A stretch of DNA of 64,000 nt, from NCBI GenBank assembly GCA_934438055.1, contig CAKSAY010000004.1:3351-67350 (forward strand), read 5' to 3'. Origin of the DNA: an uncultured Oscillospiraceae bacterium. Lineage in GTDB: Bacteria; Bacillota; Clostridia; Oscillospirales; Ruminococcaceae. Each line of letters starts with the position of its first letter. Position 1 is the stretch's first letter. Shown in pieces: positions 16,985 to 24,148 of the stretch. Position numbers and translations under genes: made by a program. The notes beneath the pieces are model-generated. The model did no database searches and was not told where the DNA came from. It was given only the letters and a program-made list of their open reading frames with translations.

Positions 16985-17026
16985 AAAAATCCCGCAATGC
17001 GTTAGCTTTGCAGTGATAAGGAAGTA
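16985..17026 (+). repeat. left arm of the island-flanking inverted repeat
   Basis: AAAAATCCCGCAATGC (16985-17000), 17-nt spacer, AAGGAAGTA (17018-17026). The reverse complement recurs at 24107-24148 with identical spacing. Confidence 0.7.
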
Positions 17027-17066
17027 GAAAAATAAATTAACTTAACAACTGACAAACAAGGTTGCG

Positions 17067-17106
17067 AAAAGCAAGTGTACTAAACAAAAAGTACACTTGC
17101 TTTTTA
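17067..17106 (+). terminator. strong intrinsic terminator upstream of the AT-rich cassette
   Basis: AAAAGCAAGTGTAC / GTACACTTGCTTTT 14-bp perfect stem followed by a T-run. Confidence 0.8.
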
Positions 17107-17155
17107 GTTATACCATGGAAAGAGCATGAATAATTCGACACAATACCTTTATTTA

Positions 17156-17164
17156 TGTTATAAT
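17156..17164 (+). promoter_or_regulatory. extended -10 promoter element of the two-gene cassette
   Basis: TGtTATAAT (17156-17164), 30 nt upstream of the ATG. GGAGGGG RBS at 17183-17189. Confidence 0.5.
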
Positions 17165-17194
17165 TAAAAAAATAGAAATAAGCGGAGGGGTATC

Positions 17195-18172
17195 ATGTAT
17201 AATTTAAGTTTAACTGCGTGTAGCTTTCATTTGAAAAAAGCAAATTCAAAGGGAAACACCCAAATTTTTAATCTGAATACTCCTTTTGATGTAGAATTAG
17301 AAGATGACAGCAAATACCATTTTGAAGATTTATCAGAACTGTTCATTTCGTTTTTTGAAAATCATAAAACACTAATTAAGGATGATAGTAAGCAGCAGTC
17401 TTTTCGTTGTGAATATGATAAGAAAAATTATCGTGAAACAGACCTGTTTCGCATGTATTGTGTTAAAATTTATTCAGGGATTTATGGTAGTTCTTCAGAC
17501 ATCATCGATGGTAAGACCGAAAAAGTTCGATACAAGAAAAGATCATCAGATATAGATACTCGTCCATTTTACTTAATGATTATTTTTCCAAAAGACAATG
17601 AAAAAGTGACTGTACAAAAAGGAATGTTTATATTCCAAAATGTTGGGCAGTTTGGTGTCAAAACTATTACGACAACTTTAATGCAAAAATTCTTTTCTGA
17701 TATATTTGGCCTTACTTTAAAATGTAACACAATTGCACCGGATTTATTTGTAAGAAAAGTTATTCGTAAAGATAATATCAAAAAACTTTTAATGACAAAA
17801 AATGTTAAATCGAATGATATTGCAGATAATATTAGCGTGGGTTATGGCTCTGAAATTAGAGAAATCAGTAATCTTTGTTTTAACGAAACAATGTGGTCAA
17901 AGATTATGGATAAAATTAGATTTGTAGCTGGAGGAAAATATAACTTATTTGAGTTTGAACAGCAACAATATGATAATTTAAAAGTTATAGTTGATATTGG
18001 AGGTAGAAATCGCACAATTAACCTTCATAACCTTGAGAATTTAAGCATCATTGAAGGTATTCCTGATAATATAAGAATGGCAGATGGGCATCCAAATTTA
18101 CCTATGCTTATTGAATATTTTCAAAAAGTAGCTACCGAATACTTAAAGGAAATGGTATTGCATATATCTTAA
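17195..18172 (+). CDS. hypothetical 325-aa soluble protein (cassette gene A), function unknown
   Basis: Uninterrupted 978-nt ORF at ~28% GC with a good RBS. No TM segment or signal peptide. No nucleotide-binding, nuclease, TIR, SIR2 or protease motif recognisable by eye. Central beta-rich segment PFYLMIIFPKDNEKVTVQKGMFIFQNVGQFGVKT. Confidence 0.8.
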   Translation: MYNLSLTACSFHLKKANSKGNTQIFNLNTPFDVELEDDSKYHFEDLSELFISFFENHKTLIKDDSKQQSFRCEYDKKNYRETDLFRMYCVKIYSGIYGSSSDIIDGKTEKVRYKKRSSDIDTRPFYLMIIFPKDNEKVTVQKGMFIFQNVGQFGVKTITTTLMQKFFSDIFGLTLKCNTIAPDLFVRKVIRKDNIKKLLMTKNVKSNDIADNISVGYGSEIREISNLCFNETMWSKIMDKIRFVAGGKYNLFEFEQQQYDNLKVIVDIGGRNRTINLHNLENLSIIEGIPDNIRMADGHPNLPMLIEYFQKVATEYLKEMVLHIS

Positions 18173-18191
18173 ATTAAGGAGGGAGGAATTT

Positions 18192-21295: not shown

Positions 21296-21427
21296 AACAT
21301 TCACCTTCCATAAAACTTTCTTATGTCTTTCTTTTATTTTACCGCCATTATGATAGAGATTCTATACACCATACAGTACAAACCAATCTGTATAAAATAA
21401 GAGGCTGTAAAACACAGCCCCTTACGA

Positions 21428-21691
21428 TTATTTCTGATATATAATTTTCCGAACAGCATAGAAAGATAAACCATATTTTTCAGACAGGCATTCTATAGAA
21501 ATGCCATTCTGATACTCTCTTTTTATTTGCTCATTCCGTTGTTCCAATTCTTGCCGATAGCCGGAAACTTCTCCCCAACGCTTTTGCTGCTCCTGTTCGA
21601 TAGGAACATAGATATATCCACCTTGAACATAATTCTGTAATTCTTTTACCAATGCGTCTGGAAGAATCAGTTTTGCATTAAAATACTTCAT
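21428..21691 (-). CDS. CD3324-family small protein (putative DNA-binding)
   Basis: MKYFNAKLILPDALVKELQNYVQGGYIYVP...WGEVSGYR...RNEQIKREYQNGISIECLSEKYGLSFYAVRKIIY matches the clostridial CD3324-family pattern as I recall it. Start taken at Met11. Confidence 0.6.
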   Translation of the reverse strand: MKYFNAKLILPDALVKELQNYVQGGYIYVPIEQEQQKRWGEVSGYRQELEQRNEQIKREYQNGISIECLSEKYGLSFYAVRKIIYQK

Positions 21692-22157
21692 GAGGACTTT
21701 CCTCCTTGATGTGATAGTCAAGTAGCAAAGCCAGCATTTTTATTCTGCGACTATGATTACTCCATGCAAATGTCGCAATCTACTGGCTTTGCATGGAGGA
21801 AAACATCATTTTTCCTTTTTTCATTTATGCACATCTTAATCACTTCTTTCTTTTTTCAAAAAACATCCGCTTGAATTTAGTGTAGCACAATCATAATTTT
21901 CTATCAACCAATCAAAAAATTCTTTTTCATACTTTTGGCATTTCTAAAATTTTCCCGTATTAAGGATTAAAGAAAGAAAACCAAAAATTTTTGAGGAAAT
22001 CTTCGGCAAAACTGCCCTATGCGGTGTAGTAGAAAGTGAAAGGAAAAACAGAGGGTTTGGGAAACTTCCCAACAAGCAAAATGCAGGTCATTTTCGGAAA
22101 AGGGTCCCCTTCTCCTATGCTTGCTAAGAAGTTTTTCACTTCATCAAATACGAAAGG

Positions 22158-22413
22158 ATGGGAATGGAACGGAAACAAGAGCTTAAAGGCAACGAATTTT
22201 TGCCAAAACGCGGCAATCCTCAACACGAAACGGTTACTTATGAAATCGGCGGTACATTTTATGAAGTGTCTACGTCCTGCGGCGGATCGAAACTGCTAAA
22301 TGAAACGCCTTATCAAAGAGGAATCCGGCAAAACGCCTGCTGACAAGAAAAGTAAAGTCCGCTATAATAAAGACAGCAACCTGTTTGTCGGGCGTTCATT
22401 ACAGGAGAAGTGA
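22158..22413 (+). pseudogene. TnpW-like transposon protein remnant (frameshifted)
   Basis: ETVTYEIGGTFYEVSTSCGGSKLL continues in another frame as [17 protein letters not shown]...SLQEK, ending at TGA 22411. It lies immediately upstream of the recombinase, as in serine-recombinase transposons. Confidence 0.45.
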
Positions 22414-22417
22414 ACAC

Positions 22418-24072
22418 ATGACAGCATATGTCAATAAGCCCGAACAGATAACAGCATTATACGCCCGTCTTTCACAAGAGGACGCGCTTGACGGCGACAG
22501 CAACAGCATTGTCAATCAGAAAGCAGTTTTATCAAAATATGCCGATGACAACGGATTTACAAATCCGGTATTTTTCATTGATGACAGCGTTTCAGGAGTA
22601 ACCTTTGACCGTCCGAATTTTAGCCGTATGATAGCGGAAATTGAAGCTAGAAACGTGGGAACGGTTATCGTCAAGGATATGGTCACGCTTGGGGCGTGAT
22701 TATCTGAAAGTCGGTTACTATACGGAAATCTTTTTCGTGGAAAGAGATGTGCGCTATATCGCCATCAATGACGGTGTGGACAGCGCAAATGGAGATAATG
22801 ATTTTACTCCCTTTCGCAACTTATTTAATGATTTTTATGCAAAGGATACAAGCAAGAAAGTCCGCGCCATCAAGAAAGCACAGAGAATGGCAGGAGAACA
22901 TCTGACAAAGCCACCCTACGGTTACAAAGTTGGCCCCGCTGACAAGAAAAAGTGGATTGTAGACGAAGAAGCTGCCGCTGTGGTAAAACAGATTTTTGAT
23001 TTGTGTATCGCTGGAAAAGGACCCATGCAGATAGCGAAAATTCTCAAAGCGGATAAGATACTGACATCAAAAGCCTATTATGCAAAACAGAAAGGCAAGC
23101 TGCTGCCGGATAATCCCTACAACTGGAACGAAAACAGTATTGTAAGTATCTTGGAGCGTATGGATTACTGCGGACATACGGTAAATTTCAAAAGCTACTC
23201 CAAATCCCATAAACTGAAAAAGCGGATTCCCACCACAAAGAAACAGCAGGCAATTTTCCGCAATACCCATGAAGCAATCGTTGAGGAAGCTGTCTTTGAA
23301 CGGGTACAGGAATTGAGAGCAAACCAACGCTGTCCCACAAAAGCAGAACGGCAAGGATTGTTCTCCGGCTTAGTCTACTGTGCCGATTACGGAAGCAAGC
23401 TGCATTTTGCCACCTGCAAGAGCTTTAATGGCAGACAAGACCATTACCGCTGTGCAAACTACAAGAGCAATACGGGGGAATGTACCGCACATTTTATGCG
23501 GGAAGAAACGCTGAAAGCAATCGTCCGGCAGAGGATATTTGATGTAACAGCAAGGTTTGTTGAGAATATCATGGATTTTCGTGAAATGGTCTATCAGCAG
23601 CGGTTTGCCGAAGCGGAAAAGGATATGAAGCGTAAGCGGCGTGAGGTCGAACAGGCAAGGAAACGTATCGCAGAACTTGATCGTATTTTCAAGCGGAGTT
23701 TATGAGGACGATATCAACGGCACAATCAGCCATGAACGGTTTTTGAAGCTGTCCGCAGAATATGAAGCGGAACAAAAGGAACTGACAGAAAAGGTAAAGA
23801 CAGAACAACAGGAAGTTGATACCTATGCGCAAAACAAAACGGACTTTGACAGTTTCGCCGCCATTATCCGCAAGTATGTAGGGATAACGGAATTAACGCC
23901 CACTATCGTCAATGAATTTGTGAAGAAAATTGTAGTCCATACGCCGGAAAAGATAGACGACAAGCGTTTTCAGAAAGTGGATATTGTCTTTAACTTCGTA
24001 GGAGAAATCCATTTGCCTGCCGAGCCGCAGACAGAACAAAAAGAAGTCAATAAACAGGAAAAGGCGGCATAA
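22418..24072 (+). pseudogene. large serine recombinase (TnpX/TndX-like) with two +1 frameshifts
   Basis: N-terminal resolvase domain [24 protein letters not shown] (catalytic Ser context), then VKDM / [11 protein letters not shown], a recombinase domain, a zinc-ribbon-like CADYGSKLHF...CANYKSNTGEC, and a coiled-coil C-terminus. The frame is restored by deleting one G of GG at 22681-22682 and the A at 23697. Confidence 0.85.
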
Positions 24073-24106
24073 CCCTTGAATGGGGCTATGCCGCCTAATC
24101 GAAGGA

Positions 24107-24148
24107 TACTTCCTTGTAACCCGAAACCCTTTGCATTGCGGGATTTTT
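24107..24148 (-). repeat. right arm of the island-flanking inverted repeat
   Basis: TACTTCCTT (24107-24115), 17-nt spacer, GCATTGCGGGATTTTT (24133-24148). This is the reverse complement of the left arm blocks. Confidence 0.7.

What the first reader, a model, noticed from the sequence alone, without database searches (positions are those of the whole stretch)
16985..24148. Island delimited by a spaced 16+9-nt inverted repeat between convergent core genes
Seen in sequence:
- The left arm is AAAAATCCCGCAATGC-N17-AAGGAAGTA at 16985-17026.
- Its exact reverse complement, TACTTCCTT-N17-GCATTGCGGGATTTTT, is at 24107-24148, with the same 17-nt spacing.
- The right arm lies 35 nt after the stop of the serine recombinase pseudogene.
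- Everything between the arms is accessory and everything outside is core. The peptidase ends at 16876 and namZ ends at 24406, and they are convergent.

Inference, two readings are possible:
- The arms are element termini or the recombinase-bound half-sites retained in attL and attR.
- The element inserted into a pre-existing dyad (a bidirectional terminator, AAAAATCCCGCAATGC...GCATTGCGGGATTTTT) shared by the convergent genes.

A single random 16-mer inverted match somewhere in 64 kb is not very improbable. What makes this one notable is the second block at identical spacing and the position exactly at the accessory/core junctions.
Basis: partly seen in the sequence, partly recalled or inferred. 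Interest (0 to 1): 0.6.

Follow-up and report, generated by a model that had tools for sequence, protein, structure and literature searches.

The report
Decayed serine-recombinase element splitting a terminator hairpin
The spaced inverted repeat is real: a 7.1-kb, apparently dead mobile element of a common gut-Clostridia type inserted at a TT in the loop of a host terminator-like hairpin, which is an ordinary member of a known class.

Summary
Observation confirmed. The 16+N17+9 arms sit exactly at 16985-17026 and 24107-24148, with no such pair in 100 shuffles.

- The outer 16-mers are the two arms of a host hairpin (attB). The same hairpin occurs intact about 10 more times in this 0.95-Mb genome.
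- The inner 9-mers, plus the 14 nt next to them, are the conserved attP arms of a widespread element family. The search found at least 561 related loci in gut Clostridia.

Among relatives, sequence identity stops exactly at a TT, which is the crossover dinucleotide. The spacing of 17 is 1 host nt + TT + 14 element nt on each side.

The rebuilt empty site is AAAAATCCCGCAATGC-G-TT-T-GCATTGCGGGATTTTT, a perfect 16-bp stem. On a target-site matrix built only from other elements, just one of 206,577 TT positions in the genome scores as high.

The recombinase is a DUF4368-type large serine recombinase, about 38% identical to annotated TndX. Here it carries two frameshifts and has lost a zinc-ribbon cysteine. 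The vat-like and sigma-like genes are also broken. An intact RexA-fold gene plus a membrane-protein gene occupy a variable cargo slot.

No island-free strain could be retrieved. This scan has reported the same kind of terminator-loop insertion on other DNA. Verdict: new member of a known kind, modest interest.

The parts
14321..16876 (+). Left flanking host gene: secreted papain-family (C1) cysteine peptidase with lectin-like, Ig-like and dockerin domains.
   Evidence: ORF; Pfam Peptidase_C1, Lectin_like and Dockerin_1.
16985..17001 (.). B half-site of attL: the left arm of the host hairpin (16-mer AAAAATCCCGCAATGC) plus one loop nucleotide, G.
   Evidence: Intact paralogous hairpins. Matches the family attB half-site consensus.
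17002..17003 (.). TT crossover dinucleotide in attL.
   Evidence: This is the only spacer offset near the hairpin loop (offsets 0-3 from the 16-mer checked) at which attL and attR share a dinucleotide (read). TT is conserved at this position in the left ends of the related loci in which both ends were found (all but one TG).
17004..17026 (.). P' half-site, the element's left end: agctttgcagtgat plus the distal 9-mer AAGGAAGTA.
   Evidence: Family left ends read TT-agttttacggtgat-AAGGAAGTA. The window shares 12/14 positions with the closest versions.
17067..17104 (+). Perfect 15-bp hairpin followed by T's, just inside the left end. It may terminate read-through from the peptidase gene.
   Evidence: the repeat finder pair I23. 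The terminator function is inferred.
17195..18172 (+). Intact cargo gene of 325 aa with a RexA/RdgC-like fold and no Pfam, NCBIfam or PADLOC family.
   Evidence: No family hits. Model has pLDDT 85. Foldseek matches RdgC (E 1e-4) and lambda RexA (E 7e-4, probability 0.99). VIA-align gives RexA Z 10.1, rmsd 3.4 A over 149 residues.
18192..18728 (+). Intact cargo gene of 178 aa, a hydrophobic multi-pass membrane protein. It is the possible partner of the RexA-fold protein.
   Evidence: Translation; no family hits. The pairing is inferred from adjacency.
19165..19620 (-). Backbone gene for a sigma-70 region-4 protein, with two in-frame stops relative to its 151-aa homologue.
   Evidence: Pfam Sigma70_r4_2. 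Aligns over residues 1-151 of the L088 homologue. Stops shown. Homologues found in 44 of the 80 loci.
19959..20580 (-). Vat-family streptogramin A O-acetyltransferase-like gene, frameshifted near 20398-20405.
   Evidence: NCBIfam Vat_ABCDEFH scores 183 bits against a cut-off of 300 and covers profile positions 50-199 only. The gene falls in two frames against the L088 Vat.
20594..21295 (-). Ntn-hydrolase-like gene with an MCT... N-terminus, intact.
   Evidence: 80% identical over 234 aa to the L088 homologue. That homologue hits Pfam CBAH only weakly (E 0.003).
21428..21721 (-). CD3324-family / Mor-like small HTH regulator.
   Evidence: NCBIfam CD3324_fam at 107 bits against a cut-off of 65. 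Pfam Mor weak.
22036..22299 (+). Small conserved ORF just upstream of the recombinase; function unknown.
   Evidence: Homologous stretch in 54 of the 80 related loci. No Pfam hit.
22385..24072 (+). Large serine recombinase pseudogene in three frames. Frameshifts lie near 22683-22693 and 23696-23698, and the zinc-ribbon CxxC reads CADYG at 23388-23390.
   Evidence: Pfam Resolvase, Recombinase, Zn_ribbon_recom and DUF4368 fall on three separate ORFs. tblastn with the intact 567-aa L066 protein gives three segments at 85-87% identity in frames +3, +1 and +2.
24062..24096 (-). G+C-rich hairpin overlapping the recombinase stop. The equivalent hairpin is conserved in relatives.
   Evidence: the same hairpin precedes the right end.
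24107..24129 (.). P half-site, the element's right end: distal 9-mer TACTTCCTT plus gtaacccgaaaccc.
   Evidence: Conserved in about 70 related loci. The 23 nt are identical in L063 and L066, which have different flanks after the TT.
24130..24131 (.). TT crossover dinucleotide in attR.
   Evidence: Similarity among relatives ends here.
24132..24148 (.). B' half-site: one loop nucleotide, T, plus the right arm of the host hairpin (GCATTGCGGGATTTTT).
   Evidence: Positions 5-17 match the family consensus TT-GatTTTacgGGnTTTt.
24294..24319 (-). NamZ's own terminator-like hairpin, proximal to the split hairpin.
24406..25635 (-). Right flanking host gene: exo-beta-N-acetylmuramidase NamZ.
   Evidence: Pfam NamZ_N and NamZ_C.

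Best explanation
Window 17004-24131 is a 7,128-bp element of a widespread gut-Clostridia family of small cargo-carrying elements. These elements are moved by a DUF4368-type (TndX-like) large serine recombinase encoded at their right end.

The circular form carried an attP site: TACTTCCTT-gtaacccgaaaccc-TT-agctttgcagtgat-AAGGAAGTA. It recombined with a host attB that is a terminator-like dyad between the convergent peptidase and namZ genes: AAAAATCCCGCAATGC-G-TT-T-GCATTGCGGGATTTTT.

Recombinase dimers bind the two symmetric half-sites of each duplex site, cut at the central TT, rotate and religate. This gives attL (B-TT-P') and attR (P-TT-B').

The outer 16-mers are B and B'. The inner 9-mers are the distal parts of P' and P. 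The equal 17-nt spacing is 1 + 2 + 14 nt on each side.

The element has since decayed and is probably immobile on its own. The recombinase has two frameshifts and has lost a zinc-ligand cysteine, the vat-like gene is frameshifted, and the sigma-like gene has in-frame stops.

Shown: the repeat, family-wide conservation of the ends up to the TT, the variability of flanks, the paralogous intact hairpins, the match of the site to the family target motif, and the gene defects.

Inferred: the chemistry (from the enzyme family), the pre-insertion state of this locus, and the terminator function of the hairpin.
For: 1. Right ends. In about 70 of the 80 related loci, the recombinase stop is followed by a hairpin, then TACTTCC(T/C)T, then 14 conserved nt, then TT, then unrelated sequence. 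L063 and L066 share the window's 23-nt arm exactly and diverge right after the TT.

2. Left ends. They read [variable flank]-TT-agttttacggtgat-AAGGAAGTA in 33 loci. Element sizes are 3.5-10.6 kb.

3. Collinearity. Window 18850-24133 is collinear with the L088 element at 74.6% identity, and the alignment ends at the junction.

4. Hairpin copies. The 16-mer with one mismatch or fewer occurs 7 times in the 954-kb genome, against 0 for the reversed control. Ten other sites hold the intact hairpin with a 4-7-nt loop, and all are intergenic.

5. Rebuilt attB. It folds as a perfect 16-bp stem with an MFE of -25.2 kcal/mol, z = -8.7 against shuffles.

6. Target motif. A matrix built from 59 right and 31 left flanks of other elements scores the rebuilt site at 20.9 bits in the predicted register. 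Only 1 of 206,577 TT positions in the genome scores as high.

7. Domains. Resolvase + Recombinase + Zn_ribbon_recom + DUF4368, and 37.7% identity to annotated TndX.

8. Published precedent. DUF4368 marks the multi-targeting LSR clade, and one example there has a TT core (PMC10083194).

9. Site geometry. With the inner T of the core counted as position 1, the 9-mer lies at positions 16-24 of the attP half-site. This is the span of the zinc-ribbon-domain motif in the A118 attP half-site (PMC3783163). The comparison is positional only.

10. Decay.
Against: - No island-free copy of this locus was obtained, so the intact hairpin at this position is reconstructed rather than observed.
- The genome is an 81%-complete draft in 19 contigs. 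Some of the frameshifts could therefore be assembly errors.
- No recombination directionality factor, relaxase or oriT was identified, so how the family transfers between cells is unexplained.
- Only about half of the relatives' rebuilt attB sites are clear hairpins. The hairpin as such is therefore not required by the enzyme.
Confidence: 0.88

Rival explanations
1. The element is still functional. Under this reading the frameshifts and stops are sequencing or assembly errors of a draft metagenome-type assembly, or slippage-prone tracts, and the island can still excise.
For: The genome is an 81%-complete draft in 19 contigs. All att half-sites are intact and match the family consensus. The catalytic serine motif YARLSQED is present.
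Against: There are five independent defects in three island genes: two frameshifts and a Cys-to-Tyr change in the zinc ribbon, one frameshift in the vat-like gene, and two in-frame stops in the sigma-like gene. The flanking 851-aa and 409-aa host genes are intact.
Confidence: 0.15
2. The repeat marks the terminal inverted repeats of a DDE-type transposon, and the TT at both ends is a 2-bp target-site duplication.
For: TT is present on both sides, and the ends are imperfect inverted repeats.
Against: No DDE transposase is present. The only recombinase in the element, and the gene conserved in every related locus, is a large serine recombinase. Serine recombinases exchange strands at a 2-nt core, which leaves the same dinucleotide at both junctions. 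The outer 16-mers are host sequence.
Confidence: 0.03
3. The 16-mer arms belong to the element or to a small repeat element of its own, such as a MITE or REP-like unit. Under this reading the island merely lies inside that unit, and the hairpin is not a target site.
For: The hairpin is multi-copy and lineage-specific. The strict pattern finds 6 copies here against 0-1 in each of 40 relatives.
Against: Only the roughly 36-nt hairpin is shared among copies; their flanks are unrelated. None of 59 other insertions carries these arms. The arms match the independently derived attB motif in the exact register of the TT.
Confidence: 0.04

Closest known systems
Multi-targeting DUF4368 clade of large serine recombinases (Durrant et al. 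2022, PMC10083194), which includes the TndX-like transposase subfamily
   Same: The four-domain architecture includes DUF4368. Close relatives sit in many different sites (59 distinct right flanks). The core dinucleotide is TT, as in the example described in that paper. The attB motif is degenerate and at least 20 bp long.
   Different: I could not check whether this particular subfamily, its conserved ends or its attB motif are in that paper's database. In the sections I searched by keyword, the paper does not mention terminator-like targets.
TndX of Tn5397 and TnpX of Tn4451/Tn4453 (clostridial serine 'transposases')
   Same: The window's enzyme is a large serine recombinase placed at one end of the element. 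It is 37.7% identical over 327 aa to proteins annotated TndX on Enterococcus plasmids. The element is small, carries cargo and inserts at many sites.
   Different: From my own knowledge, Tn5397 and Tn4451 recombine at a GA dinucleotide, whereas here the core is TT. Tn5397 is a 21-kb conjugative element, and Tn4451 carries a Mob protein (TnpZ). No transfer gene was found here.
Phage serine integrase att sites (A118/LI integrase model, Rutherford et al. 2013, PMC3783163)
   Same: attP and attB are pseudo-palindromic around a 2-nt core. The attP half-site is about 25 bp with a distal motif at positions 16-24, which is where the 9-mer lies. All four half-sites share a proximal TTT..CGG pattern.
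   Different: This is not a phage. The attB is degenerate and multi-copy rather than unique. I could not recognise a distal motif displaced by 5 bp in attB.
Lambda RexA/RexB phage-exclusion pair (applies to the cargo genes 17195-18728 only)
   Same: The 325-aa protein has a RexA/RdgC-like fold (Z 10.1; Foldseek probability 0.99). It is followed by a small multi-pass membrane protein, as RexA is by RexB.
   Different: There is no sequence-level match: the PADLOC, Pfam and NCBIfam searches gave no hit. The structural alignment covers only 149 of 325 residues. Function was not tested.

Membership tests
Large serine recombinase (serine integrase/transposase) | N-terminal resolvase catalytic domain with the catalytic serine, followed by a recombinase domain and a zinc-ribbon domain with a coiled coil | tested here: met
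   Pfam Resolvase, Recombinase and Zn_ribbon_recom. The YARLSQED serine motif aligns with intact homologues. The gene is broken in this copy.
Multi-targeting DUF4368 LSR clade (Durrant 2022) | C-terminal DUF4368 domain | tested here: met
   PF14287, E 3.7e-25, on the third reading-frame piece.
Multi-targeting DUF4368 LSR clade (Durrant 2022) | Closely related recombinases integrated in many unrelated target sites | tested here: met
   Relatives at 82-94% identity have 59 distinct right flanks and 31 distinct rebuilt attB sites. Some are intergenic and some lie inside long ORFs.
Serine-recombinase integration product (attL/attR) | The same 2-nt core at both junctions, with element-specific half-sites inside and host half-sites outside, each pair in inverted orientation | tested here: met
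   TT at 17002-17003 and 24130-24131. Conservation among relatives ends at the TT.
Serine-recombinase integration product (attL/attR) | An uninterrupted attB in genomes that lack the element | not testable with these tools
   No congener is held. The metagenome scan found only NamZ relatives at 47% identity or less.
Tn4451/Tn5397 (TnpX/TndX) elements | GA crossover dinucleotide at the element ends (from my own knowledge of these elements) | tested here: not met
   The core here and in nearly all relatives is TT.
Tn4451/Tn5397 (TnpX/TndX) elements | Mobilisation or conjugation genes on the element | tested here: not met
   No relaxase or transfer family appeared in the Pfam or NCBIfam scans of the island ORFs.
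Rho-independent (intrinsic) terminator | G+C-rich stem-loop followed by a T run, placed 3' of a gene | tested here: met
   The rebuilt site has a 16-bp stem flanked by A5-6 and T5, lying 108 nt after the peptidase stop. The paralogous copies are intergenic and mostly 3' of genes. Termination activity was not tested.
DDE transposon with terminal inverted repeats | A DDE transposase gene between the repeats | tested here: not met
   None was found among the island ORFs.
RexAB-type exclusion system (cargo) | Sequence membership in the RexA and RexB families | tested here: not met
   No PADLOC hit at E <= 0.01 for either protein. Only fold similarity to RexA was found.

The most novel reading that the evidence does not exclude
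This recombinase subfamily recognises a degenerate dyad, AAAAnCCCGnAAAnc-TT-gnTTTnCGGGnTTTT, that mimics bidirectional intrinsic terminators. Terminators across gut Clostridia would then act as harmless, ever-present landing sites.

In this host, a lineage-specific amplified terminator hairpin (about 11 copies) would supply several near-optimal sites, and the best of them was used.

I found no description of such a targeting rule in the papers I searched. Earlier reports of this scan reached the same idea for related clades.
Probability: 0.45. Interest if true: 0.5.

Novelty: new member of a known kind. Interest (0 to 1): 0.3.

Why it matters
It gives a clean worked example of reading a serine-recombinase insertion from one genome alone. 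The crossover dinucleotide, all four half-sites and the empty site can be reconstructed and then cross-checked against hundreds of relatives.

The family matters practically:
- It is abundant in gut Clostridia.
- It carries resistance-type cargo (Vat-like acetyltransferase, MatE and ABC efflux, ArsR/ArsP).
- It also carries defence-type cargo (TIR, AbiTii, a RexA-fold protein).

DUF4368 recombinases are being developed as genome-integration tools. A defined attP of about 50 bp and a target motif for this subfamily could therefore be useful.

The particular copy in this window is a decayed remnant of ordinary kind.

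Tried and rejected
Searches for an island-free orthologous site all failed:
- DNA search of 40 relatives. Only island genes matched, never the flanks, and every relative belongs to another genus.
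- The metagenome scan with NamZ gave only relatives at 47% identity or less.

Other results:
- Our-findings look-up by place: no notes for this genome.
- The 325-aa, 178-aa and 254-aa proteins had no hit in Pfam, NCBIfam or PADLOC.
- tblastn of the 325-aa and 178-aa proteins against the 80 related loci found nothing, so this cargo pair is not shared with them.
- I looked for a zinc-ribbon-domain motif in attB displaced 5 bp from its position in attP, as in the A118 model. No convincing match was seen, so I make no claim.
- Literature searches for a described terminator-targeting rule of serine recombinases found none. This covers only the open-access library.

Rejected readings: a chance repeat, DDE transposon terminal repeats, and the hairpin being part of the element.

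Full report
**1. The observation**

The repeat finder lists them as the longest inverted pair in the region, 32/42 complementary. The spaced pattern occurs once on each strand of the window and never in 100 shuffles.

The flanking genes are convergent. A C1 peptidase with lectin-like and dockerin domains ends at 16876. NamZ ends at 24406.

**2. What lies between the arms**

Reading left to right:
- A 325-aa protein and a 178-aa membrane protein, both with no family hit, in DNA of 26-30% G+C.
- A sigma-70 region-4 protein.
- A Vat-family acetyltransferase-like gene.
- An Ntn-hydrolase-like gene.
- A CD3324/Mor-like HTH regulator.
- A small conserved ORF.
- A large serine recombinase with Resolvase, Recombinase, Zn_ribbon_recom and DUF4368 domains, split over three reading frames.

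Against the intact 567-aa homologue of L066, the recombinase aligns at 85-87% identity in frames +3, +1 and +2. The breaks lie near 22683-22693 and 23696-23698, and the zinc-ribbon CADCG reads CADYG. The vat-like gene is frameshifted near 20398-20405. The sigma-like gene has two in-frame stops. The flanking host genes are intact.

**3. The outer 16-mer is host sequence and belongs to a dispersed hairpin**

In the window's own 954-kb assembly, the 16-mer with one mismatch or fewer occurs 7 times; the reversed control occurs 0 times. The other copies are paired face to face as intact hairpins, AAAAATCCCG(C/T)AATGC-loop-GCATT(G/A)CGGGATTTTT.

A relaxed scan finds ten intact copies, on contigs C1, C2, C3 (two), C5, C6 (two), C9 and C11 (two). 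Their flanks are unrelated. All are intergenic and most lie 3' of a gene.

A strict hairpin pattern finds 6 copies here and 0-1 in each of 40 relatives of 1.1-3.1 Mb. The window holds the only split copy.

**4. The inner 9-mer belongs to the element**

A scan of one genome per species with the recombinase's middle piece found at least 561 relatives. The best 80 loci, at 81-94% amino-acid identity, come from Lachnospiraceae, Oscillospiraceae, Christensenellaceae and other gut Clostridia.

In about 70 of them, the recombinase stop is followed by a hairpin, then TACTTCC(T/C)T, then 14 conserved nt, then TT. After the TT the sequence differs from locus to locus. L063 and L066 share the window's 23 nt (TACTTCCTT-gtaacccgaaaccc) exactly and diverge right after the TT.

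Left ends were found in 33 loci. They read [variable]-TT-agttttacggtgat-AAGGAAGTA. Element lengths are 3.5-10.6 kb. The window is collinear with the L088 element from 18850 to the junction at 74.6% identity.

**5. The junctions**

With the TT as core:
- attL = 16-mer, G, TT, agctttgcagtgat, AAGGAAGTA.
- attR = TACTTCCTT, gtaacccgaaaccc, TT, T, 16-mer'.

That is what two dyad-symmetric sites exchanging at their centres must give.

TT is also the only offset near the loop at which the two spacers share a dinucleotide (read directly). The element is 7,128 bp (17004-24131, counting one TT).

**6. The rebuilt attB**

The rebuilt site is AAAAATCCCGCAATGC-G-TT-T-GCATTGCGGGATTTTT. It folds as a perfect 16-bp stem with a GTTT loop, MFE -25.2 kcal/mol, z = -8.7 against shuffles.

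A position matrix was built only from other elements' flanks (59 right, 31 left). Its half-site consensus is TT-GatTTTacgGGnTTTt. It scores the rebuilt site at 20.9 bits in exactly this register. Only one of 206,577 TT positions in the genome scores as high, and two paralogous hairpins rank 7th and 10th.

This is independent support for two points: the dyad was the target, and the loop TT was the crossover.

**7. How general is the hairpin target?**

Of 31 other distinct rebuilt attB sites:
- 15 fold much better than shuffles (z < -2).
- 10 have 6 or more pairs centred on the core.
- Several, such as L064, L086, L092 and L126, lie inside long open frames.

The enzyme therefore reads a degenerate dyad motif that resembles a bidirectional terminator, rather than requiring a hairpin. 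Survival of harmless insertions may add to the bias.

Earlier reports of this scan describe the same kind of terminator-loop insertion for related recombinases on other DNA. These are leads, not evidence. My own count supports the rule only in part for this subfamily.

**8. Comparison with what is known**

DUF4368 marks the multi-targeting LSR clade, which includes TndX-like enzymes, and one example there has a TT core (PMC10083194). The window's enzyme is 37.7% identical to proteins annotated TndX.

The general half-site model is a roughly 25-bp attP half-site with a distal zinc-ribbon-domain motif at positions 16-24 (PMC3783163). This fits the position of the 9-mer. I could not identify the corresponding shifted motif in attB.

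The element differs from Tn4451 and Tn5397 in its core dinucleotide: those use GA, from my own knowledge. It also lacks any transfer gene.

**9. Cargo**

Backbone genes shared with relatives are the sigma-like gene (44 loci) and the small ORF before the recombinase (54 loci). The vat-like, Ntn-hydrolase-like and CD3324 block is shared with four elements.

Across the family, cargo includes TetR+MatE, ABC transporters, methyltransferases, ArsR/ArsP, a nitroreductase, TIR proteins and AbiTii.

The window's left slot holds a pair not seen in the 80 loci. The 325-aa protein models well (pLDDT 85). Its best structural matches are RdgC and lambda RexA. With the adjacent membrane protein this suggests a RexAB-like exclusion pair, which is a hypothesis only.

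**10. Limits**

No island-free strain could be retrieved. The pre-insertion state is therefore reconstructed, and the gene defects cannot be checked against reads.

**Verdict**

The element is an ordinary, decayed member of a known class, and the dispersed host hairpin is a minor curiosity.

Noticed in passing
own genome G000: C1:40060-40098, C2:1572-1608, C3:28410-28445, C3:57027-57063, C5:61245-61285, C6:40686-40720, C6:57110-57150, C9:26615-26650, C11:15143-15178, C11:19720-19760: A lineage-specific family of about 10 near-identical terminator-like hairpins (stem ATCCCG(C/T)AA(T/C)GC) with unrelated flanks. The strict pattern finds 6 copies here against 0-1 in each of 40 relatives. Why one stem sequence recurs at unrelated gene ends is unexplained.
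   Followed up: partly
window 17195-18728: An intact low-G+C gene pair: a 325-aa protein with a RexA/RdgC-like fold (Z 10.1 to lambda RexA) followed by a 178-aa multi-pass membrane protein. It may be a RexAB-like phage-exclusion module. The 325-aa family is widespread in public assemblies (271 homologues at E <= 0.001), and the only source names shown for it are 'uncharacterised' or 'hypothetical protein'.
   Followed up: partly
L088:5147-6010 and L104:1648-2511 (same slot as window 17027-18850): The variable slot between the left end and the sigma-like gene carries a 287-aa TIR-domain protein in other elements. AbiTii and AAA_21 proteins also occur in the family's cargo. The slot may be a small defence-gene hotspot.
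   Followed up: partly
own genome G000: C2:55975-56513: A second Vat-like acetyltransferase stretch elsewhere in the genome, 75% identical at DNA level to the island's copy.
   Followed up: no
own genome G000: C3:96024-97694: A second, apparently uninterrupted large serine recombinase gene of a different subfamily, 39% identical over 558 aa to the L066 enzyme. Its element was not examined.
   Followed up: no
own genome G000: C16:1-210 and C15:16880-16977: A motif of about 33 nt (…TTGAAAATCCCTCAATGGCGTTATAAC…) repeats every 70-71 nt at the ends of two contigs. It looks like a CRISPR array broken by the assembly.
   Followed up: no
window 18861-18979: A strong 14-bp G+C-rich terminator-like hairpin (18861-18893) and a second 27-nt inverted repeat (18908-18979). 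They sit exactly where the window's unique cargo joins the backbone shared with L088.
   Followed up: no
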